From a virus (Duplodnaviria; Heunggongvirae; Uroviricota; Caudoviricetes): DNA of 18,588 nt. A program made the position numbers and the translations under genes. The notes below the pieces were generated by a model. The model searched no databases and was not told where the DNA came from. It saw nothing but the letters and a program-made list of their open reading frames with translations. The first letter of the stretch is position 1, and every line of letters begins with the position of its first letter. The DNA lies in the IMG/VR virus record IMGVR_UViG_2526164690_000035, positions 1 to 18,588 of that record; one strand, written 5' to 3'. Shown one piece after another: positions 1-18,588 of the stretch.

Positions 1-227
1 CCAACGTTAAGCTGTTGAGTCGTTTTAAGTGTAATTCGGGGCAGAATTGGTAAAGAGAGTCGTGTAAAATATCGAGTTCGCACATCTTGTTGTCTGATTA
101 TTGATTTTTCGCGAAACCATTTGATCATATGACAAGATGTGTATCCACCTTAACTTAATGATTTTTACCAAAATCATTAGGGGATTCATCAGTGTTGAGT
201 GGCCAGTCGCCCCGCAATAAAAGGATA

Positions 228-255
228 AAGCCATCGATAGAAATATTGATGGCTT
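228..255 (-). terminator. Putative intrinsic terminator downstream of the acetyltransferase gene
   Basis: Inverted repeat aagccatcgata / tattgatggctt (12-bp stem, one G-T pair) around a 4-nt loop, beginning 8 nt past the TAG stop at 264-266; on the minus strand it is followed by a T-rich tract (TATCCTTTTATTG). Confidence 0.45.
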
Positions 256-263
256 CATGTACT

Positions 264-836
264 CTATTTATACAATACAACACCGCTCTTTTTTGTTATA
301 TATGTGCAGTTCGATGGTATATCTTTATTTATAAAAGACATTGCACCTATTTTTACATTATCCCCAATTTTACGTGATAATCCAATGATGCAACAATTAG
401 CTCCGATATCAACGTTATTACCAATTTTTACTCTTGAACCAGGCATGTCACCATCTACCTGTCCAATGGTAGTATTCTGTCGCAAAACCAGATTTTCACC
501 AGCATCAACAGCAAAATGAACAACAATTCCAGTATGATGGGGAATTGTTAAACCTTTTCCAATATTTGCGCCCAATCCAATTTCGCAACCAAATCTGTTA
601 ATTATATTATTGTTTAACTTTCTGGCTGCTTTCTTATGTAATTTATTGCCATTAATATACATTTCATTAGCCAGTCTCCACCAGAAAAGGAAATTCCGAT
701 TGCGCTGCTTCTTCTCTCTTAATAGTCGCCAAACATCCATTTTTTCACGCCTGATGATTTCAGCCATCCAGTAGCTCAATAGAGCTTTTGAATTCCCGAA
801 GATGACAAAGTGAATAGCTATTAAGTAACATAACAT
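264..836 (-). CDS. Hexapeptide-repeat (left-handed beta-helix) O-acetyltransferase, serine acetyltransferase/WcaB-like
   Basis: 190-aa ORF. Translation contains the CysE/WcaB-type core GCEIGLGANIGKGLTIPHHTGIVV followed by repeated [LIV]-G-x-x-x-x hexapeptides (KIGNNVDIGANCCIIGLSRKIGDNVKIGAMSF). Gene and flanks are visibly AT-rich relative to the rest of the window. Start codon uncertain (weak SD before the ATG at 836). Confidence 0.75.
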   Translation of the reverse strand: MLCYLIAIHFVIFGNSKALLSYWMAEIIRREKMDVWRLLREKKQRNRNFLFWWRLANEMYINGNKLHKKAARKLNNNIINRFGCEIGLGANIGKGLTIPHHTGIVVHFAVDAGENLVLRQNTTIGQVDGDMPGSRVKIGNNVDIGANCCIIGLSRKIGDNVKIGAMSFINKDIPSNCTYITKKSGVVLYK

Positions 837-1302
837 ATTGCAACTGCCTATATTTTTTGGTTTCTATGTTTATATATTGACATTATAATTAAAACAATAA
901 TCATCAGTGTGTTACTGCGTTCCTGCTAAACTAAATCAACGCACAATGTAAACACAAATGTTAATTTTAAACTGAGCGCTAAAGGGATGTCAATATTGTA
1001 TTGATAATGAGTTGCAAGATTGCCAACACTTTCTATATTTTTGGATGTAATAATTTATATTTTATCTATTTAGTGTTTCTTTAGACTTATTAAGGATGTC
1101 ATTATTAATTTATGGCTTGCCATTTCTATACATATCTGTTAAAAATTTTGACTTGTTTGTTGAAAATAGATTTAATTGATTGGTTTATTTTTACATGACG
1201 CTCTTTAATATAGCTTCAGGTATATATAAGCACAATGCATTATTTCCAGAGGAAATTAACAAAATTGTTAGCTCTTATTTGTTGAGCTTATAGATATTAA
1301 TT

Positions 1303-1322
1303 AAGGCCCGATTCCGGGCCTT
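1303..1322 (-). terminator. GC-rich hairpin at the boundary of the AT-rich island, possible terminator for the small minus-strand ORF
   Basis: aaggcccg-attc-cgggcctt (8-bp stem) immediately 3' of the stop at 1326 on the minus strand, followed on that strand by an A/T-rich stretch (AATTAATATCTAT); T-tract is imperfect. Confidence 0.35.
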
Positions 1323-1325
1323 TCC

Positions 1326-1562
1326 TCATTCCGGCTTTTCGGGAAACGTTACTGGAAGGATGGAGGTATCCGTGGATTCGACTTTCTGCGCATAGAGAAT
1401 CCACTCGGTTAATTTTTGTTTACCCTGAACGGAAATAATGCCTAGCCGTAACTGTGAGTCCCAGAGCTGAGTTTTATCCCTGACGAGCTGTAGCAGGCTT
1501 TGCTTTTCTTTTTCCGCTTGTTGTCTTTGCATGACCGGTTGAGAAGTTACTTTGCATACCAT
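1326..1562 (-). CDS. Small hypothetical protein (78 aa), antisense to and overlapping the 5' end of lydA
   Basis: In-frame ATG at 1560-1562 within the 165-aa track ORF 1326..1823; only the part downstream of lydA looks protein-like (MVCKVTSQPVMQRQQAEKEKQSLLQLVRDKTQLWDSQ...). An AGGAGG sits only 2 nt from this ATG, so the true start may differ (alternative ATG at 1532). Not recognised as a known family. Confidence 0.3.
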   Translation of the reverse strand: MVCKVTSQPVMQRQQAEKEKQSLLQLVRDKTQLWDSQLRLGIISVQGKQKLTEWILYAQKVESTDTSILPVTFPEKPE

Positions 1563-1590: not shown

Positions 1591-1920
1591 GTGCTTGACA
1601 CACAGGAATTAGCTCCAGTTGCTATTGCGCTCCTGCTTTCAGTAATTGGTGGGATAGGCACGTTCCTGATGGATGTCCGAGACGGTCGCCAGTCTGGCAA
1701 TTTGTTAGGATTGGTTACGGAGATCTTTGTTGCAGTGACAGCTGGCGCGGTGGCGTACCTATTGGGGCAACACGAGGGCTGGGAGTTATCAATTACGTAC
1801 TTAATGGTAACGATAGCCAGCAATAACGGTCATGAGGTGATTTCAGGGATGAAACGAGTGAATATCGATAGCATTCTGAATGTTCTTACAAGTTTGGTGA
1901 AAAAGGGAGGCGGGAAATGA
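1591..1920 (+). CDS. lydA: Holin, P1 LydA-like
   Basis: 109-aa protein with GTG start preceded by AGGAGGGAA; hydrophobic transmembrane segments (VAIALLLSVIGGIGTFLM, IFVAVTAGAVAYLLG) and charged C-terminus typical of holins. Position as first gene of the operon with lydB/hdf/darA matches my recollection of P1. Name assigned by synteny and size, not by alignment. Confidence 0.65.
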   Translation: MLDTQELAPVAIALLLSVIGGIGTFLMDVRDGRQSGNLLGLVTEIFVAVTAGAVAYLLGQHEGWELSITYLMVTIASNNGHEVISGMKRVNIDSILNVLTSLVKKGGGK

Positions 1921-2360
1921 TTGGCTGGGGTGTATGCGTTCTTGCGTTAGCCTTAGCCGATCGCTATTTGCTAAAACGCAAGGACATCACGCACTTAGAA
2001 CTTGGTGATGTGGAAATTAAACCGGGTTTCATCCGGGTGCCGTTCAAATACCGGTCTAAATTCCCGTTTTTGCGCGGCGCAACGGTCAGATATTGGATCC
2101 GCGATGTTCAGAAGCCGACGACAGTGATTGAAGGCGAACAACGTTGTCTGACGTCGGCTGAACAGGGCGAAAACAGTGAATGGTTGTACATACCCACTGA
2201 ATATATGGGTAAAGGAGAGCGACTGTGGCATTTCAACGTCATGGTTACGCATGGCGACTCGTTCATTAACCCGTTGTATCGGATTTTCCCTGTTACTCAG
2301 CAAATCCGCAGAAGTTACGTAATAAATCTCGCACAGGATGTGTCAGATGACGAAAAATAA
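1917..2360 (+). CDS. lydB: LydB-like holin antagonist
   Basis: 147-aa ORF overlapping the lydA stop by 4 nt (ATGA coupling); hydrophobic N-terminus MIGWGVCVLALALA. Assignment by position after lydA and size only. Confidence 0.55.
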   Translation: MIGWGVCVLALALADRYLLKRKDITHLELGDVEIKPGFIRVPFKYRSKFPFLRGATVRYWIRDVQKPTTVIEGEQRCLTSAEQGENSEWLYIPTEYMGKGERLWHFNVMVTHGDSFINPLYRIFPVTQQIRRSYVINLAQDVSDDEK

Positions 2361-2949
2361 GTATGCAACGGTCGATTTTGACCAGGTTAATGAAAAGGGG
2401 CTGAAATCCCTTATCGCGGCGATCAATAAAACCGGGGTTACGGTAATTGAGGTTGACTCCAGCAACCGCGCAACAACGAAAGATGGCGTTAAAGTTAAAA
2501 CCGCAAAGCTGGTTCTTAACGACGGACAAATTCTTGCCATACAGGTAAACGATACTGGCGATATATCGTCTGTGAAACTGAATGGAAAAGCTATTCCTAA
2601 CGCTCAGTCGCCGGATATCAAGACGCTTGGTACCGTCATGGGACAGGCGGCTCGCAAAAACTCCGCAAAATTCCAGAAATCACTGATCGCCAAAGCGAAG
2701 CGTGTTGCCAATCCGGTAGACAAGAAACCGGCAGTTAAATCCAACTTTCAGCGCCTGCAAGAGGCAAAACAGCGGAATGCTCAGGTGGTTGCCGCTTATA
2801 AATCAGCTCAGAACTCGGTGTCTTTCAATCAACAGCAGATCACTGATTTGCGGGGGAAGCTGGATAAGGAGACAGGCCGACTCAATAACGAAAAGGCCCG
2901 AAATGGCGAACTCAAACGCCGTCTTAAGCAACTGAAAGCAGGAAATTAA
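2338..2949 (+). CDS. hdf: Hdf-like protein (homolog of a DarA fragment)
   Basis: 203-aa ORF. Shares internal segments with the downstream 639-aa protein: KNSAKFQ (DNA aaaaactccgcaaaattccag at about 2653-2676 versus aaaaactcggcaaaattccag at about 3552-3575, 20/21 nt identical) and LNDGQILAIQV versus LSDGQTISILF. Likely true start is the ATG at 2347 (MTKNK), 8 nt after an AGGA. Confidence 0.6.
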   Translation: MCQMTKNKYATVDFDQVNEKGLKSLIAAINKTGVTVIEVDSSNRATTKDGVKVKTAKLVLNDGQILAIQVNDTGDISSVKLNGKAIPNAQSPDIKTLGTVMGQAARKNSAKFQKSLIAKAKRVANPVDKKPAVKSNFQRLQEAKQRNAQVVAAYKSAQNSVSFNQQQITDLRGKLDKETGRLNNEKARNGELKRRLKQLKAGN

Positions 2950-2950
2950 C

Positions 2951-4870
2951 ATGGAACAGTTCAATATCAATAAAGGGGTGACGATCAAGCCTGGGCTTGA
3001 CGTGCTTCCCCCGCCAGTGACTGATGATGAATATCGCGCATTAATGGCCGGTGAGGACCGCTATCTGATGACGGAATCCAACACCCTGGAGGAAATCGAG
3101 GCTACGTTCTTCTATGACACGCCGATCCACTGGTGTGCTACGGATTTACTGGAGGCGATTAGTTCTACTCGTTTGCAGTTACACCGGACCATGCAGGCAT
3201 TTGTCCGGGCATTGAACCAGAAGCTGAATGGTACCGGAATCTCTGCGGGGAGTGATAAAACGGGCGATGTGGCCCAGAGCGGCGCGCGCGCGATCGGCGG
3301 CGCTGAAATTGGTCGGGCACGTAACGTTAACGGGCTGCCGGTCCTGCCAGCCATTATTCCGCTCAGTGATGGTCAGACTATCAGCATTCTGTTTCATAGC
3401 CCGACAGCGGAAAACCGGATCACCAATAGCGATACGCTGGTTGCTTTCCAGTTCTTACTGAATAAAAAAGACGTTACTCACACCGTTGCTCCGATGAGTG
3501 GACGTGATATGACGCTGGCGCAGGTCACCATGAAACTTGCCAACCTTGCAGAGAAAAACTCGGCAAAATTCCAGCGTGCGCAGAAGAAGAAAAAAGCCCT
3601 TGTTGATGAAATAACCCAACTACAGGCTGACAGTGACCAGAAAGAGGATGCCATGAGCGACCTCGCGGATCAGGTGGCAGCGGTAGAAGGGCAGAAGGCA
3701 GATCTGGAGCAGAAAATTAACGCTGTTGCATCGGAAGCGGATTCTCTTTATGAAGAGAATGAGCGTTTGCAGACGGAGATTGATCAGCTCAATCGCACTG
3801 GTGGGCGCGATACCATTGCTCCTGCGGGGATGACTGGTGGGTACTCTCGCGCGCTGACGGATCGCCTTGCCAGTATCAAAAATCGTATGCATATGAACGG
3901 GGAAGTGACGCTCAGTAATGGTGCATCAATGAAGCAATTCATTGAGGACGGCGAAGGGTATATCCAGTTAACCGATTCGGATGGCAGCGTGTACATGATC
4001 AAGGCTAAATCCATACAGGGTGTGGACATGGCAGATGCGATCGGCAAGCTGTTTAAAGCCTATAAAGCGGGTAATGTATCGGAATATCTGGTCCAACCAG
4101 AAGAACATAAACCGGAAAACGTCGAACCTGAATCAGCGGAGGATACCGGTAGCTCTTTGCCTGAACCAGAAGTCTCTGTAGGTGCATATCGATATGCCCT
4201 GCAAATGCGTCCGGCGGCCCCTGGCGCAATACCTGAAGGTAACAAAGCAATTCTGCCGCGCCCTGATGAAGGTGACCCGTATTATGAATATGCACGCTAC
4301 GGCATTGTTACTTACGATACCCCGCTTTCTGATCAGCAAATGAGTGAGTACGACCTGAAGTTATTGCCTCGCGAGGATTCTTTCGACTTCCTGGCGAAGA
4401 CACTTACTAATGGTCCGTTTGGCAAATATGCACAAAAAGCTCTGGAGCTGGCCACCAGCTCACCAGACGAGTTCCGCGTAATGCTGAAAACTCAGTTTCA
4501 AAAAACTTTCCCCAATATTGCGTTTCCTGGGGGCGCTGGCATCGAGAAAATGGTGCAGAGCATGATCAATGCATTGCAGGCCGAAGTCGGTGAGATTACT
4601 CAACCAGAACCGGTCCCGGCACAGCCTGATGAAACGGTTAGCGAAGCAGATGCAGAGGCTAATAAAGCCATTGAATATCTCAATAGCGTGATGGATATGC
4701 AAAGCACTGACATGGCGGAGATCCGTAACGCCCGGGGCAATGTCCGGGAAGCGATTGCTGCCCTTCAGGCTGCCGGACGTTTTGAGGAAAACGAAGAGCT
4801 GGTTAACGGTGCTGCTCGCCACCTGGCTGATCTGCTGGTAGCAATCCAGAAAGCGGGGGTAGCGGCATGA
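2951..4870 (+). CDS. darA: DarA-like capsid-packaged antirestriction protein
   Basis: 639-aa ORF with central coiled-coil region (LQADSDQKEDAMSDLADQVAAVEGQKADLEQKINAVASEADSLYEENERLQTEIDQL) and acidic proline-rich linkers. Size, operon position after lydA-lydB-hdf and the Hdf paralogy match my recollection of P1 DarA; no alignment done. Confidence 0.65.
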   Translation: MEQFNINKGVTIKPGLDVLPPPVTDDEYRALMAGEDRYLMTESNTLEEIEATFFYDTPIHWCATDLLEAISSTRLQLHRTMQAFVRALNQKLNGTGISAGSDKTGDVAQSGARAIGGAEIGRARNVNGLPVLPAIIPLSDGQTISILFHSPTAENRITNSDTLVAFQFLLNKKDVTHTVAPMSGRDMTLAQVTMKLANLAEKNSAKFQRAQKKKKALVDEITQLQADSDQKEDAMSDLADQVAAVEGQKADLEQKINAVASEADSLYEENERLQTEIDQLNRTGGRDTIAPAGMTGGYSRALTDRLASIKNRMHMNGEVTLSNGASMKQFIEDGEGYIQLTDSDGSVYMIKAKSIQGVDMADAIGKLFKAYKAGNVSEYLVQPEEHKPENVEPESAEDTGSSLPEPEVSVGAYRYALQMRPAAPGAIPEGNKAILPRPDEGDPYYEYARYGIVTYDTPLSDQQMSEYDLKLLPREDSFDFLAKTLTNGPFGKYAQKALELATSSPDEFRVMLKTQFQKTFPNIAFPGGAGIEKMVQSMINALQAEVGEITQPEPVPAQPDETVSEADAEANKAIEYLNSVMDMQSTDMAEIRNARGNVREAIAALQAAGRFEENEELVNGAARHLADLLVAIQKAGVAA

Positions 4871-5232
4871 CACTATCAGCTATTGAGTTAATGGACCTCA
4901 GCGATAAGTTGGATGCTCTGATGTCCAAAGCGGCTACCGCGAGTGGCATGGAGTTGCTGGATATCAGCGATGAAATTGACCAGATCATGCAACAGATGGG
5001 GTACGGCGCGTCCGGCGGCAGTAGTGGCGAGGAAAAACAACCTTCGGTACATGATGGTGTGCCAAAACTGGTTGCTGATTTCCTGGCTGATAAATTCGTC
5101 GATCAGAGCACTGATGCATTTATCGGTACGTTACAGGACTTGAGTCAATATGTTGGCACATACATCGACCTGGACCAGGTTAAACAGCACACGGCGGCAT
5201 GGATAGCCGCCAACATTAAAGAGGCAGCGTGA
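4867..5232 (+). CDS. ddrA: DdrA-like small acidic protein
   Basis: 121-aa ORF overlapping the darA stop by 4 nt (ATGA). Acidic, Asp/Glu-rich. Named by position and size only. Its stop codon abuts the right end of the TnpB element. Confidence 0.5.
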   Translation: MTLSAIELMDLSDKLDALMSKAATASGMELLDISDEIDQIMQQMGYGASGGSSGEEKQPSVHDGVPKLVADFLADKFVDQSTDAFIGTLQDLSQYVGTYIDLDQVKQHTAAWIAANIKEAA

Positions 5233-5400
5233 CATCCTCCACGCCCCGAAGGGCGTGGATTCCTGCTACGTTCAGGCTGTCGCCTGAATCATTTCGGTGG
5301 GTTCCTGCTTCAACGGGCGGCCTGACTGCACCATCCCTCCACAGGCAAGTACGGCGTGCCCCGCCGCTAAAATGTTACGAGCGCCGTTTACATCGGCGTT
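5233..5400 (-). ncRNA. Putative TnpB omega RNA (right-end element RNA) scaffold
   Basis: Inference from established TnpB biology: the guide RNA derives from the 3' end of tnpB plus the right end, and a right-end hairpin is present at 5239-5258. Extent is not determinable from sequence alone. Confidence 0.25.
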
Positions 5401-6480
5401 CGCTGTATATCCACATACCTGGCATCTGAATTTACTTTGTGACAGGCGATTTTCTTTCGCTGTATGACCACAGCACGCGCAACGCTGGCTTGTGTACGCT
5501 GGCGGAACAGCAAGCACCTGACCGCCACGCCAGAGCTGCTTGTACTCAAGCTGGCGGCGCATTTCATACCAGCCCTGATCCAGTATCGAACGGTTTAAAC
5601 CTGATTTTGCCCGGACATTGCGACCCGGATGACTTATCGTTCCCGCCGCTGACTTTGACATGTATTTAACCTTCAAATCCTCAATGACAATCATTGCGTG
5701 GTTTTTGCTGACGGTCGTTGTGACTTTGTGAAGGTAGTCCCTGCGGATATTTGCGATACGGGAATGCAGTCGCTGTATTTTGCGTTTCTGCTTCTGCCAG
5801 TTGTTGCTGAATTTGACCTTGCGGCTTAACTGTCGCTGAAGTCTCGCCAGCTTCTTCTGGTTTTTCTGAAAACTATTTACAGGTTCAAAGACTGTGCCAT
5901 CTGACAGCGTGGCGAGTTTAGCCACGCCAGCATCCAGTCCGACCATTGATGCTGAAGGGTGAACAGGAGTGGATACCTCTCTTTCTGTCTGAATACTGAT
6001 GTACCACTTACCGCAGGACTGGCTGACAGTAACATTTTTCACAATACCCGTGACCTGACGGCTATTCCGGTAGCGCATCCAGCCAAGTTTCGGCAGAAAA
6101 ATACGGCTGTTTTCCTGATCGAGCTTAACACCCTGCGGGTAGCGGAATGCATCATTCTGTCCCCGCTTTTTGAATCGGGGAAAAGCTGCCCGATTCTGGA
6201 AGAAGTTTTTGTAAGCCCGCTCAAGGTCTTTCAGTGACTGTTGCAATGGCTGTGAGGGAGAATCTTTAAGCCATTCGGTTTCAGTGTCTTTTTTCCACTC
6301 AACCAACCAGGAAGCCATTTTCGTGTAAGGGATGTATTTTTTACCGGCCTCATGATTCTCATTCTGAAGCGCCAGAGCACGGTTGAAAACGAAACGACAA
6401 GCTCCGGCAAAGCGCCTCATTTGACGCTCCTGTTGACCATCTGGTTTTAACCGGAATTTGAATGACACCTGTTGTTTCAT
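5272..6480 (-). CDS. tnpB: TnpB (OrfB) RNA-guided nuclease of the IS200/IS605 family
   Basis: 402-aa ORF with a RuvC-like core and C-terminal zinc-finger pattern (SQRCACCGH ... [20 protein letters not shown]) characteristic of TnpB/OrfB proteins. Confidence 0.9.
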
Positions 6481-6579
6481 GTCACTATTTTAAGCAAAAA
6501 TAGCCGGGAGGAAAACTGTGCCTTATATCCCCACTATGAGGAGCGTAGGGGGCGGCACATTGGATAAGGCGTAACAGGG

Positions 6580-17583: not shown

Positions 17584-18057
17584 TTAAATCAAGTCATCTC
17601 TTAGATTTTTAGCTACAACCATATAAAATGTTGCATATTTCATAATAATATCATCAAATTCTTTGTCTAAAACACTTCCAAGTTTCCCGTCTATAAATTT
17701 CCTCATAACGTTATTCATTCCATGTGTTTTAGCAAATATATTTTTTCCGTCTATTAAATTATCATCCTCAACAGGAGAATAAGATACACTCCATCCACAT
17801 TTGATTAAGTTTTTTGCCGATTTTGTGGAAATATCAAGAAGTATGGTTGCATCAATATTAATGATTTTACAGAATTTCATCATATTCTCTACAGAGAGAG
17901 AGGACTTACCATTTTCAATTTTTCCCCAGCCGGCACTTGTTATCCCAAGGCCAGATGCAATGTCTGATTGAGTAACACCATGCTTCTCGCGAAAATCGCG
18001 AATATGGAAAGCCAATATAGTTAAATAGGATGTTTTCATATGGGTAATGATACTCAC
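17584..18057 (-). CDS. HTH XRE-family (Cro/C1-type) DNA-binding protein with a roughly 70-aa C-terminal extension
   Basis: N-terminal helix-turn-helix KHGVTQSDIASGLGITSAGWGKIENGKSSLSVENMMKFCKIINIDATILL. Track ORF starts at the GTG at 18057; the ATG at 18037-18039 (MKTSYL...) is the more likely start (151 aa). C-terminal region not recognised. Confidence 0.75.
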   Translation of the reverse strand: MSIITHMKTSYLTILAFHIRDFREKHGVTQSDIASGLGITSAGWGKIENGKSSLSVENMMKFCKIINIDATILLDISTKSAKNLIKCGWSVSYSPVEDDNLIDGKNIFAKTHGMNNVMRKFIDGKLGSVLDKEFDDIIMKYATFYMVVAKNLRDDLI

Positions 18058-18074
18058 AGTTTATAAAACTTCAA
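18047..18074 (-). promoter_or_regulatory. Candidate sigma70 promoter giving a leaderless transcript for the HTH gene
   Basis: On the minus strand: TTGAAG (-35), 16-nt spacer, TATCAT (-10), then 7 nt (tacccat) to the ATG at 18039. An 11-bp palindrome AACTTGAAGTT overlaps the -35 and could be an operator. Confidence 0.3.
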
Positions 18075-18155
18075 GTATTTTATTGCGATAATCGTATGCG
18101 AGTCCACTTCTTGGTTGAAGATTGAACTTCGGTAATGTGCTGAAGAGACATTTAA

Positions 18156-18177
18156 TCATGCCCGGCATCAACCGGGC
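18156..18177 (-). terminator. Hairpin 3' of the KilAC-domain gene
   Basis: atgcccgg-catcaa-ccgggcat (8-bp stem), 10 nt beyond the stop at 18187; on the minus strand it is followed by GATTAAATGTCTCTT, an imperfect T-tract. Confidence 0.35.
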
Positions 18178-18186
18178 ATTCTTCCA

Positions 18187-18519
18187 TTATTCAGCCGCCA
18201 CCGGTTTTAACAAGCCAGCATCGAGCAGTTTACGCGTCAACCACTGCTGGCCTTTACCCGTTAATTGAGGCGTCAACCGTATCTGGTAGCCATCTTCATC
18301 ATCCAGCACCACTTCTTTCACCGTGAAATACCCCGCGTTGATGTACTGCTGGAACGGCACATTTTTACGTCCACCGGACGCTATCAGGATGCCGTTCTCC
18401 CGTAACCAGACAAACAGCGCGTTTTGCTTAAGTCCAACAACCTTTGCAAAATTCCCAATCAGGATCCCTTTAGCTACTGATACCCGGTCGGCAAAATCGA
18501 CTTTAGGAGCGGCGGCCAC
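18187..18519 (-). CDS. KilAC-domain (antirepressor C-terminal domain) protein
   Basis: 110-aa ORF with GTG start. Translation (VAKGILIGNFAKVVGLKQNALFVWLRENGILIASGGRKNVPFQQYINAGYFTVKEV...TPQLTGKGQQWL) resembles the C-terminal domain of phage Ant/KilA antirepressors. Confidence 0.55.
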   Translation of the reverse strand: MAAAPKVDFADRVSVAKGILIGNFAKVVGLKQNALFVWLRENGILIASGGRKNVPFQQYINAGYFTVKEVVLDDEDGYQIRLTPQLTGKGQQWLTRKLLDAGLLKPVAAE

Positions 18520-18530
18520 CAGCTGCTGAT

Positions 18531-18588
18531 TTAGCTGGTGGCTTTCTGTTCCAGAAGTTGCTTTTGTTCAGCCAGTTCGGCAGCCAGG
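18531..18588 (-). CDS. 3' end of a minus-strand gene running off the window edge
   Basis: Open frame from the window edge ending ...LAAELAEQKQLLEQKATS then TAA (stop at 18531-18533), 12 nt upstream of the KilAC ORF start; may be the N-terminal part of a split antirepressor gene. Confidence 0.3.
   Translation of the reverse strand, partial: LAAELAEQKQLLEQKATS

What the first reader, a model, noticed from the sequence alone, without database searches (positions are those of the whole stretch)
1..1325. AT-rich left island carrying a WcaB/CysE-like hexapeptide acetyltransferase with about 490 bp of non-coding AT-rich DNA
The first 1.3 kb is visibly AT-rich and ends abruptly at a GC-rich hairpin (1303-1322) where backbone-like composition begins. 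It encodes a left-handed beta-helix acetyltransferase with a serine-acetyltransferase-type core and its own terminator (228-255). Soluble hexapeptide acetyltransferases on phages are known to O-acetylate surface polysaccharides (for example NeuO of prophage CUS-3), so this could be a serotype-converting or receptor-masking gene. The stretch 837-1302 has no ORF in the track and is rich in A/T tracts, consistent with promoter or H-NS-bound regulatory DNA.
Basis: partly seen in the sequence, partly recalled or inferred. Interest (0 to 1): 0.5.

Follow-up and report, generated by a model that had tools for sequence, protein, structure and literature searches.

The report
Tail-fibre-linked acetyltransferase moron in P1-like plasmid
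A P1-like phage-plasmid carries, between its two tail-fibre chaperone genes, an AT-rich cargo gene for a small sugar-type acetyltransferase (mislabelled "serine acetyltransferase") that most likely decorates the cell-surface lipopolysaccharide; the gene is already annotated and its kind is familiar, but its function has not been tested.

Summary
There is an AT-rich stretch with a 190-aa hexapeptide acetyltransferase gene (264-836, minus strand), a hairpin terminator (226-257), 466 bp with no ORF (837-1302, 27% GC) and a GC-rich hairpin (1303-1322).

Three corrections:
- Bases 1-192 are the end of an IS10 inserted into the tail-fibre assembly gene, not part of the island.
- The island lies in the centre of the P1 invertible tail-fibre (C) segment. 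P1 has only 28 bp there, between U' and U.
- This copy has lost cin, lydC, Sv' and the 5' part of U' by a 2.9-kb deletion.

The gene, the tail-fibre tip and the tfa gene form one 1.8-kb block that is 92% identical to P2-like prophages. There the gene sits in the known cargo slot next to tfa.

The enzyme is under purifying selection. It fails every test for a true serine acetyltransferase. It has 46-68% identical relatives inside LPS-core gene clusters.

Best reading: a lysogenic-conversion moron that O-acetylates LPS core or another envelope glycan in the cytoplasm, possibly masking a phage receptor. The substrate is inferred, not shown. It is a new member of a known kind, of modest interest.

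The parts
1..192 (-). Outside end of IS10 (the element continues beyond the left edge of the window). It contains RNA-OUT (78-147, + strand) and the transposase start at base 85, reading leftwards. It is a separate element, not part of the island.
   Evidence: 100% identity to IS10 in phage record EF120459. Rfam RF00240 RNA-OUT 98.8 bits, E 5e-21. Translation MCELDILHDSLYQFCPELHLKRLNSLTL.
193..220 (+). Last 8 codons and the stop (VEWPVAPQ*) of the tail-fibre assembly gene tfa (U-equivalent), which the IS10 insertion has cut. Bases 193-201 (TGTTGAGTG) are the probable 9-bp target duplication (inferred).
   Evidence: Alignment to uninterrupted pO111_2 and p7_54_11A-2, where tfa ends 43 bp before the acetyltransferase stop.
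226..257 (.). Hairpin between the convergent tfa and acetyltransferase genes. It is a likely intrinsic terminator of the acetyltransferase transcript.
   Evidence: -14.7 kcal/mol (minus strand) and -16.4 kcal/mol (plus strand), z -5 to -6, no shuffle folds as well. A U-rich tail is present on the minus strand only.
264..836 (-). 190-aa hexapeptide (left-handed beta-helix) acetyltransferase of the CysE/EpsC/WcaB-like clade. RefSeq WP_001369353 'serine O-acetyltransferase'; called sacF in phage JL22.
   Evidence: The N-terminus is conserved in homologues, so the ATG at 836 is the start. dN/dS is 0.10-0.21.
837..1298 (-). AT-rich (26.6% G+C) ORF-free leader upstream of the acetyltransferase. It is found only in P1-like elements and its origin is unknown.
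   Evidence: No ORF longer than 37 aa. No Rfam family. Present in 65 of 5426 complete E. coli genomes, always on plasmids and never under an annotated feature. Only three phage records hold it, two of them the same phage. No match in any other fetched locus. All 11 IMG/VR hits align to the P1-like reference loci around the marker.
964..993 (-). Sigma-70 promoter-like site TTGACA-18 nt-TAAAAT (11 of 12 matches), about 120 nt upstream of the ATG. Candidate own promoter of the acetyltransferase.
   Evidence: Both hexamers are identical in the 93.5%-identical JL22 allele.
1303..1322 (.). GC-rich hairpin (GGCCCG-ATTC-CGGGCC). It is the bidirectional terminator of the P1 U'/U intergenic region and marks the right edge of the island.
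   Evidence: P1 has AAGGCCCGATAGCGGGCCTT in its 28-bp U'-U spacer. P1 homology runs from window 1299 rightwards. The fold is -15 kcal/mol.
1326..1562 (-). Remnant of tail-fibre assembly gene U'. About the last 68 codons (1326-1530) are kept, fused at the deletion junction 1530/1531 to the DNA just upstream of lydA.
   Evidence: Pfam Caudo_TAP 4e-18, matching only profile positions 55-131. 86% identity to P1 U'. Annotated as a 78-aa tail fiber assembly protein in p7_54_11A-2.
1544..1562 (+). P1 late promoter LPdar (-22 box AAGTTACTT at 1544-1552) followed by lydA (1591-1920). This is backbone, immediately right of the 2.9-kb deletion that removed lydC, cin, cixL, Sv' and the 5' part of U'.
   Evidence: P1 annotation and sequence. 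Exact -22 box match. 100% identity of 1531-1700 to P1.

Best explanation
The island is a moron: a self-contained cargo transcription unit with a promoter-like site, a long AT-rich leader, one gene and a terminator. It sits in the middle of the P1-type tail-fibre (C) segment. It arrived as part of a tail-fibre host-range cassette (fibre tip + tfa chaperone + acetyltransferase) that is exchanged among P2-, Mu- and P1-like temperate myoviruses.

Its product is a cytoplasmic, probably trimeric, acetyl-CoA-dependent left-handed beta-helix O-acetyltransferase. It may be membrane-peripheral through its hydrophobic N-terminal helix. It is not a serine acetyltransferase.

Most likely it O-acetylates a sugar of an envelope glycan while that glycan is still being built on the cytoplasmic face of the inner membrane. 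The first candidate is the LPS outer core; otherwise an Und-PP-linked O-unit or another surface polysaccharide. In a lysogen this changes the surface. The likely pay-offs are a masked receptor (superinfection exclusion, less loss of progeny on debris) and/or altered antigenicity.

Shown: the anatomy, the foreign origin, the block shared with P2-like prophages, purifying selection, failure of the serine-acetyltransferase criteria, and relatives in LPS-core clusters.
Inferred: the substrate, the site of action and the benefit.

Graded confidence: functional acetyltransferase moron imported with the tail-fibre cassette, about 0.9; envelope glycan as substrate, about 0.55; receptor masking as the selected role, about 0.35. 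The single confidence value given (0.55) refers to the envelope-glycan acetylation reading as a whole.
For: 1. Position. P1 has 28 bp between U' and U. Here and in JL22 and pO111_2 that spacer holds the 1.1-kb island.
2. Shared block. 1830 bp at 92.4% identity are shared with P2-like prophage loci L024 and L025. The block covers the last ~640 bp of the fibre gene, tfa, the terminator and the acetyltransferase, and stops 8 nt before the ATG.
3. Recurrent arrangement. The gene is convergent with tfa in P2-like loci, a Mu-like locus, phiNP, yong2 and 613R2 and a Gilliamella locus. The neighbouring Tfa is 47-98% identical to the P1-like one in all eight comparison loci, although in yong2 only the last ~63 residues align. 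The fibre tip is 62-95% identical in seven of the eight; yong2 has no match.
4. Function retained. dN/dS is 0.10-0.21, and the HH-G-I-V, RQNTTIG and IGDNV-IGAMSF motifs are conserved.
5. Not CysE. All NCBIfam scores are far below cut-off: EpsC 77.5/150, CysE 65.6/210.65, WcaB 56.5/194.65. No SATase_N domain is found. The serine-acetyltransferase motif LDHATG reads IPHHTG, and GDRHPKI reads GSR-VKI.
6. Relatives in LPS-core clusters. A 46% identical homologue lies between waaZ and waaL in Leminorella, near waaY and the LPS 3-alpha-galactosyltransferase gene. A 68% identical homologue lies next to two GT8 core glycosyltransferases and yibB/htrL. Others lie next to GT2/Ugd or NeuB.
7. Own expression signals. 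A promoter-like site is conserved between alleles and a terminator hairpin is present.
8. From established knowledge: P1, P2 and Mu all adsorb to the LPS core, and core assembly is cytoplasmic, which suits a soluble acetyl-CoA enzyme.
9. Precedent. A non-homologous AT-rich acyltransferase, NeaT, occupies the same P2 'moron position 2' and alters surface behaviour (PMC3573123).
Against: - No substrate or phenotype is known. The only paper found that discusses the gene states that the reason for its presence is unknown (PMC9603915).
- O-acetylation of the enterobacterial LPS core is not a well-established modification.
- Some homologues lie outside phage or glycan contexts, for example on a plasmid next to a type IV pilus-type gene set (prepilin peptidase, SLT) among IS66 and other IS remnants.
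- The link to one tail-fibre tip family could simply reflect how common that tip is in E. coli myoviral prophages.
- The promoter is a consensus match only.
- The AF2 model of the beta-helix part was poor (pLDDT about 45), so the active site was assessed from sequence only.
- No PADLOC defence model matches.
Confidence: 0.55

Rival explanations
1. It is what the annotation says: a serine O-acetyltransferase that boosts cysteine synthesis for the phage or host (an auxiliary metabolic gene).
For: RefSeq and GenBank name it serine (O-)acetyltransferase. The best solved-structure hits are serine acetyltransferases at E 1e-13. The catalytic His is conserved.
Against: - Scores are far below the CysE cut-offs: 65.6 vs 210.65 and 42.2 vs 397.
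- The N-terminal serine acetyltransferase domain is not detected.
- The Asp before the catalytic His and the His of GDRHP are replaced. In my recollection of the CysE structures these residues bind serine.
- The protein has 190 aa against about 273.
- Relatives sit in LPS and polysaccharide clusters, not cys operons.
Confidence: 0.05
2. It acetylates an envelope glycan, but the selected benefit goes to the bacterium (immune evasion, aggregation, colonisation) and has nothing to do with phage receptors. This would make it like NeaT or NeuO.
For: The island is common in STEC O111, O26, O103 and O157 P1-like plasmids. NeaT, in the equivalent P2 slot, affects virulence and aggregation (PMC3573123). 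A homologue lies on a plasmid next to a type IV pilus-type gene set.
Against: The tight and repeated physical linkage to the tail-fibre tip and tfa across four phage types is more easily explained by a phage-related role. The two roles are not mutually exclusive.
Confidence: 0.2
3. It acts on a small molecule or on a protein. Candidates are xenobiotic or antibiotic acetylation, a defence or anti-defence function, or acetylation of the tail fibre or its chaperone.
For: Hexapeptide acyltransferases include Vat/CatB xenobiotic enzymes. The gene always lies next to tfa.
Against: - No NCBIfam Vat or CatB hit appears for this protein, whereas a neighbour in locus L109 gives such hits readily.
- No PADLOC hit.
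- The gene is transcribed opposite to the tail genes, with its own signals, which is typical of lysogen-expressed cargo rather than a virion assembly factor.
- P1 itself and most P1-like plasmids lack it: 65 of 466 genomes with the P1-type lydAB region carry it.
Confidence: 0.12
4. The 466-bp AT-rich stretch is not regulatory DNA. It is the decayed remnant of whatever flanked the gene in an earlier host, kept only as a spacer.
For: Its divergence between alleles (6.5%) is about 60% of the synonymous divergence of the gene (dS 0.108), so constraint is weak overall. It has no ORF, no RNA family and no repeat family. Homologues elsewhere have upstream gaps as short as 24-220 bp.
Against: The promoter-like hexamers are conserved. 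A second cargo gene in the window, the porin at 10602-11717, has a similar 28-35% G+C leader, which suggests a shared regulatory style. No trace of a pseudogene was found, but a translated search was not done.
Confidence: 0.3

Closest known systems
[quoted passage not shown]
   Same: A single AT-rich (30% G+C) acyltransferase gene in the P2 'moron position 2', next to the tail-fibre assembly gene G and transcribed opposite to the tail genes. The closest relatives of the window's gene sit in exactly that slot.
   Different: NeaT is an integral-membrane Acyl_transf_3 (PF01757) protein. The protein here is a soluble hexapeptide-repeat enzyme, so the two are not homologous. NeaT has virulence phenotypes; this gene has none reported.
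NeuO, the polysialic acid O-acetyltransferase of prophage CUS-3
   Same: A phage-borne soluble hexapeptide O-acetyltransferase that modifies a surface polysaccharide from the cytoplasmic side.
   Different: There is no 5' heptanucleotide repeat tract for phase variation. No polysialic acid O-acetyltransferase is among the PDB hits listed. The best NCBIfam matches are EpsC, CysE and WcaB, while the NeuD-type and LacA/Maa-type models score much lower.
WcaB, EpsC and CysE, the short serine-acetyltransferase-like hexapeptide acetyltransferases
   Same: They share the beta-helix core and catalytic His, and are the best profile matches. From my knowledge, WcaB is a cytoplasmic enzyme of colanic acid synthesis, the kind of reaction proposed here.
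   Different: All scores are at half or less of the family cut-offs. This protein has an extra conserved N-terminal helical region of about 45 residues. Its context is a phage tail-fibre module, not a polysaccharide operon.
Membrane O-antigen acetylases of temperate phages (Oac of Sf6, GtrC of P22-like phages)
   Same: Lysogenic-conversion acetylation of LPS that blocks superinfection, which is the proposed role here.
   Different: Those are membrane proteins of an unrelated fold. They are encoded near int/att rather than beside tail-fibre genes.
The same gene in phage JL22 (sacF) and plasmid pO111_2 (WP_001369353)
   Same: 94.7-100% identical protein in the same position.
   Different: JL22 keeps cin, Sv' and a full U', so there the gene lies inside an invertible segment. 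The window copy has the 2.9-kb deletion (shared with pO111_2) and, in addition, an IS10 in tfa that is absent from all 5426 complete E. coli genomes searched.

Membership tests
Serine O-acetyltransferase CysE (TIGR01172 / PRK11132) | Profile score at or above the curated cut-off | tested here: not met
   65.6 bits vs 210.65; 42.2 bits vs 397.
Serine O-acetyltransferase CysE (TIGR01172 / PRK11132) | N-terminal alpha-helical serine acetyltransferase domain (SATase_N) and a length of about 270 aa | tested here: not met
   Pfam finds only weak Hexapep hits. The protein has 190 aa. PDB alignments cover only chain residues about 130-260.
Serine O-acetyltransferase CysE (TIGR01172 / PRK11132) | Serine-binding residues: the Asp preceding the catalytic His (LDHATG) and Arg-His of GDRHP | tested here: not met
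   The alignments read IPHHTG and GSR-VKI: Asp becomes Pro, His is lost, Arg is kept. The assignment of these residues to serine binding comes from my knowledge of CysE structures.
Colanic acid acetyltransferase WcaB (TIGR04016) | Profile score at or above the cut-off, and location in the wca cluster | tested here: not met
   56.5 bits vs 194.65. The gene lies in a phage tail-fibre module.
Hexapeptide-repeat (left-handed beta-helix) acyltransferase superfamily | Hexapeptide repeats and homology to solved beta-helix acyltransferases with a conserved catalytic His | tested here: met
   - Pfam Hexapep E 1.9e-5 (24.6 bits, just under the gathering score of 27).
- 40 PDB sequences matched at E <= 0.01, the best at 1e-13.
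- H100 is nearly invariant.
- The AF2 model of this part was of low confidence.
PHROG 2154 (phage protein family of unknown function) | Full-length profile match | tested here: met
   E 1.9e-83, residues 13-190 on profile positions 3-181 of 185.
Phage moron (lysogenic-conversion cargo unit) | Absent from close relatives, and inserted between conserved phage genes | tested here: met
   P1 has 28 bp at this site. 65 genomes carry the island, against 466 that carry the P1-type lydAB region.
Phage moron (lysogenic-conversion cargo unit) | Atypical base composition | tested here: met
   35% and 27% G+C against 47-50% in the backbone.
Phage moron (lysogenic-conversion cargo unit) | Own promoter and terminator, and expression in the lysogen | tested here: inconclusive
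   The terminator hairpin is significant. The promoter is an 11/12 consensus match conserved between alleles. No C1 operator and no convincing late -22 box lie in the island. Expression was not measurable here.
NeuO-type phase-variable capsule O-acetyltransferase | 5' tandem heptanucleotide repeats, and close similarity to polysialic acid O-acetyltransferases | tested here: not met
   No tandem repeats in 1-1700. No such enzyme is among the PDB hits listed.
Oac / GtrC / NeaT membrane acyltransferases (PF01757) | Acyl_transf_3 domain with multiple transmembrane helices | tested here: not met
   No PF01757 hit. Only the first ~20 residues are hydrophobic (KD19 1.66).
Known anti-phage defence systems (PADLOC) | Match to any defence-system protein model | tested here: not met
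   0 families.

The most novel reading that the evidence does not exclude
The acetyltransferase and the tail-fibre tip + chaperone next to it form a functional pair that moves as one cassette among P1-, P2- and Mu-like phages. The enzyme O-acetylates, from the cytoplasm, the very LPS-core (or other) receptor that the linked fibre tip recognises, so host range and self-exclusion are inherited together. In intact P1-like phages such as JL22 the gene lies inside the invertible C segment, co-directional with Sv'-U'. Flipping the segment would therefore also place it downstream of the late tail-fibre operon and couple receptor masking to the choice of fibre.
Probability: 0.2. Interest if true: 0.6.

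Novelty: new member of a known kind. Interest (0 to 1): 0.3.

Why it matters
If the enzyme acetylates the LPS core or another surface glycan, about one in seven P1-like phage-plasmids of E. coli would be carrying a surface-modifying gene that current annotation hides under a metabolic name. Many of these plasmids are in STEC O111, O26, O103 and O157.

This could affect phage susceptibility, and so phage therapy and P1 transduction host range. It could also affect antigenicity.

The 1.8-kb block shared with P2-like prophages is a clean example of tail-fibre cassettes carrying cargo across phage families. In practical terms, the 'serine O-acetyltransferase / cysteine biosynthesis' annotation (with its GO term) is almost certainly wrong.

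Tried and rejected
- Structure. The AF2 model from a 22-sequence alignment was good only for the N-terminal helices (pLDDT about 88) and poor for the beta-helix (about 45). No fold search was run, because it would have been meaningless.
- Origin of the AT-rich leader. Distant blastn against phages and E. coli genomes, blastn against all fetched homologue loci, and an exact 24-mer scan of IMG/VR found only P1-like elements. The origin stays unresolved. A translated search for a decayed gene was not done.
- Phage regulatory sites in the island. No P1 C1 operator was found; the two hits lie elsewhere, at 12459 and 16309. No late -22 box was found except a 1-mismatch match inside the ORF, which is within chance expectation.
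- Other features of 837-1302. No Rfam family, no tandem repeats, no meaningful repeat family, no ORF longer than 37 aa.
- My mistake, corrected. I first took the 402-aa ORF at 5272-6480 for a second IS10. Pfam shows it is a TnpB/IS605-type protein.
- Source of the IS10 junction. No complete E. coli genome holds the IS10-tfa junction.
- Plasmid pLH09-a-D carries a 'frameshifted' copy. Its many indels look like assembly errors, so I ignored it.
- The literature searches returned no functional study of this family.
Full report
**What is in the sequence**

The window is a P1-like (Punavirus) phage-plasmid. Its closest relatives are pO111_2 and p7_54_11A-2 of STEC O111, at 99.8-100% identity over 193-1700.

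G+C by segment:

| Segment | G+C |
|---|---|
| 1-192 | 36.5% |
| ORF 264-836 | 35.1% |
| 837-1298 | 26.6% |
| 1299-1590 | 46.9% |
| 1591-5228 | 50.0% |

- The minus-strand ORF 264-836 encodes 190 aa.
- The hairpin at 226-257 folds at -14.7 kcal/mol on the minus strand (z -5.1) and is followed there by a U-rich run.
- The GC hairpin at 1303-1322 folds at about -15 kcal/mol.
- The 466-bp stretch 837-1302 has no ORF longer than 37 aa.

**First correction: bases 1-192 are IS10**

- They are 100% identical to IS10.
- They contain RNA-OUT (Rfam RF00240, 98.8 bits).
- They contain the transposase start at base 85, reading out of the window.

The IS10 interrupts the tail-fibre assembly gene tfa 28 bp before the end of its stop codon. 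The window keeps only its last eight codons, VEWPVAPQ* (193-220). No complete E. coli genome in the collection has this junction. The window probably starts at a repeat-induced contig end. It is neither host chromosome nor a prophage border.

**Second correction: where the island sits**

In phage JL22 the gene order is R, S(stf), tfa | acetyltransferase (opposite strand) | AT-rich DNA | U', Sv', cin | lydC, lydA. In P1 itself, U' and U are convergent and only 28 bp apart, and that spacer contains the hairpin AAGGCCCGATAGCGGGCCTT.

P1 homology on the U' side ends at window base 1299. So the GC hairpin is P1's own U'/U terminator. The island is an insertion or replacement in the centre of the invertible C segment.

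In the window, as in pO111_2, a 2.9-kb deletion joins codon ~110 of U' to the DNA just upstream of the late promoter LPdar (junction 1530/1531). It removes lydC, cin, cixL and Sv'. The 78-codon ORF at 1326-1562 is the U' remnant (Caudo_TAP 4e-18, C-terminal half only). The tail-fibre segment is therefore frozen in one orientation.

**Origin of the island**

P2-like prophage loci that encode the closest non-P1 homologue (87% identical) share one uninterrupted 1830-bp block at 92.4% identity with the P1-like plasmid. The block contains:
- the last ~640 bp of the fibre gene;
- all of tfa;
- the terminator;
- the acetyltransferase gene, up to 8 nt before its ATG.

In those prophages the gene lies beside tfa (G), convergent with it, at the junction between the fibre operon and the sheath/tube tail operon. 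In L106 it is flanked directly by tfa and the sheath gene FI. That is the 'moron position 2' described for P2-like phages, where CFT073 carries the unrelated AT-rich acyltransferase NeaT (PMC3573123).

The same convergent tfa/acetyltransferase pair recurs in:
- other P2-like loci;
- a Mu-like locus;
- phiNP, yong2 and 613R2;
- a Gilliamella locus.

Against the P1-like copy, the neighbouring Tfa is 47-98% identical in all eight comparison loci, although in yong2 only the last ~63 residues align. The fibre tip is 62-95% identical in seven of the eight; yong2 has no match.

The AT-rich leader (829-1298) is not part of the shared block. It occurs only in P1-like elements: 65 of 5426 complete E. 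coli genomes, all on plasmids, and P1-like IMG/VR contigs. Its origin is unresolved. For comparison, 466 genomes carry the P1-type lydAB region, so about 14% of them have the island.

**The enzyme**

It belongs to the serine-acetyltransferase-like branch of hexapeptide acyltransferases but to none of the named families:

| NCBIfam model | Score (bits) | Cut-off (bits) |
|---|---|---|
| EpsC | 77.5 | 150 |
| CysE (TIGR01172) | 65.6 | 210.65 |
| WcaB (TIGR04016) | 56.5 | 194.65 |

LacA, NeuD, WbbJ, Maa and WcaF score much lower.

Further points:
- It lacks the N-terminal serine acetyltransferase domain.
- In alignments to solved serine acetyltransferases the catalytic His is kept. However, the preceding Asp is Pro, and the His of GDRHP is missing. 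I recall these residues as serine-binding in CysE.
- It matches PHROG 2154 (function unknown) at 1.9e-83.
- It matches no PADLOC defence model.
- Homologues of about 190 aa are widespread in Enterobacterales. They conserve the N-terminus, so the ATG at 836 is the true start.
- dN/dS is 0.10-0.21.
- The first ~20 residues are hydrophobic (KD19 1.66) and the protein is basic (pI 9.9), which hints at peripheral membrane association. This is an inference.
- AF2 modelled five N-terminal helices well but the beta-helix poorly.

**Clues to the substrate**

- A 46% identical homologue in Leminorella lies between waaZ and waaL, near waaY and the LPS 3-alpha-galactosyltransferase gene. NCBIfam scores for the galactosyltransferase, WaaZ (TIGR04437) and RfaL are above their cut-offs.
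- A 68% identical homologue lies beside two GT8 core glycosyltransferases and yibB/htrL.
- Pseudomonas-group homologues lie next to GT2/Ugd or NeuB genes.
- P1, P2 and Mu all use the LPS core as receptor, and the core is assembled on the cytoplasmic face of the inner membrane (established knowledge). A soluble acetyl-CoA enzyme can act there.

From this I infer O-acetylation of the LPS outer core, or of another cytoplasmically assembled glycan, with receptor masking and/or antigenic change as the benefit. None of this has been shown.

**Expression signals**

- A TTGACA-18-TAAAAT site on the minus strand (993-964) is the best promoter match in the region. Its hexamers are identical in the 93.5%-identical JL22 allele.
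- The island holds no C1 operator and no convincing late promoter box.
- The leader as a whole diverges at about 60% of the gene's synonymous rate, so most of it is weakly constrained.
- H-NS binding is plausible for 27% G+C DNA but cannot be tested here.
- In intact JL22-type segments the gene is co-directional with Sv'-U'. In the flipped orientation it therefore lies downstream of the late fibre operon, behind the hairpin. This is an untested possibility for orientation-coupled expression.

**What is already known**

The gene is annotated in RefSeq (WP_001369353). The JL22 paper notes it and says the reason for its presence is unknown (PMC9603915). I found no functional study.

**Verdict**

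- This is a new member of a known kind: a tail-fibre-adjacent lysogenic-conversion moron encoding a glycan acetyltransferase.
- Interest is modest. The main practical point is that the 'serine O-acetyltransferase' label is almost certainly wrong.
- The main open point is whether the enzyme and the linked fibre tip form a functional pair.

Noticed in passing
window 1-192: Outside end of IS10 with RNA-OUT (78-147) and the transposase start (base 85, reading left). It is inserted 28 bp before the end of the tfa stop codon, with a probable target duplication TGTTGAGTG at 193-201. The junction is absent from all 5426 complete E. coli genomes searched. The tail-fibre chaperone of this element therefore has an altered C-terminus, and the phage may be defective.
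   Followed up: partly
window 1530/1531 (and 1326-1562): A 2.9-kb deletion relative to P1 and JL22 removed lydC, cin, cixL, Sv' and the first ~110 codons of U'. It leaves a 78-codon U' remnant ORF that RefSeq annotates as a tail fiber assembly protein. The C segment can no longer invert. The deletion is shared with pO111_2 and other STEC plasmids.
   Followed up: yes
window 5229-6563: A 1.3-kb insertion between ddrA and ddrB carries a 402-aa TnpB/InsQ (IS605 OrfB, Cas12f-like TNB) gene on the minus strand (5272-6480). It is present in p7_54_11A-2 but absent from pO111_2, JL22 and P1.
   Followed up: partly
window 9863-11717: An OmpC/OmpK36-like porin gene (10602-11717, 371 aa; Porin_1 3e-148; PDB Omp36 2e-136) is preceded by its own 28-35% G+C ORF-poor leader. 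It lies between the hxr-like gene and ssb, where P1 carries IS1. This is a second AT-rich cargo gene that modifies the envelope in the same window. It could relate to receptor replacement.
   Followed up: partly
window 12459-12475 and 16309-16325: Two matches to the P1 C1 repressor operator consensus, with 1 and 2 mismatches. 0.1 matches are expected by chance. They are presumably genuine immunity operators, near ssb/lyz and upstream of the 14470-16179 ORF.
   Followed up: no
window 16200-18588: Another lower-G+C stretch (32-43%). It holds a DUF3944/Ubiq_cyt_C_chap-like protein (16816-17568, minus strand), an HTH_3 protein (17584-18057, minus strand) and a KilAC/ANT-domain protein (18187-18519, minus strand).
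   Followed up: no
L013-L015 5617-6605 (P2-like prophages): In some P2-like prophages a truncated tfa remnant and a class I methyltransferase gene lie between the acetyltransferase and the full tfa. This shows further cargo turnover at the same slot.
   Followed up: no
L110 2067-5210: A 64% identical acetyltransferase homologue with its convergent tfa lies in a Mu-like tail module. That module is next to IncFII RepA genes and a HicB-like antitoxin, so this may be another phage-plasmid type.
   Followed up: no
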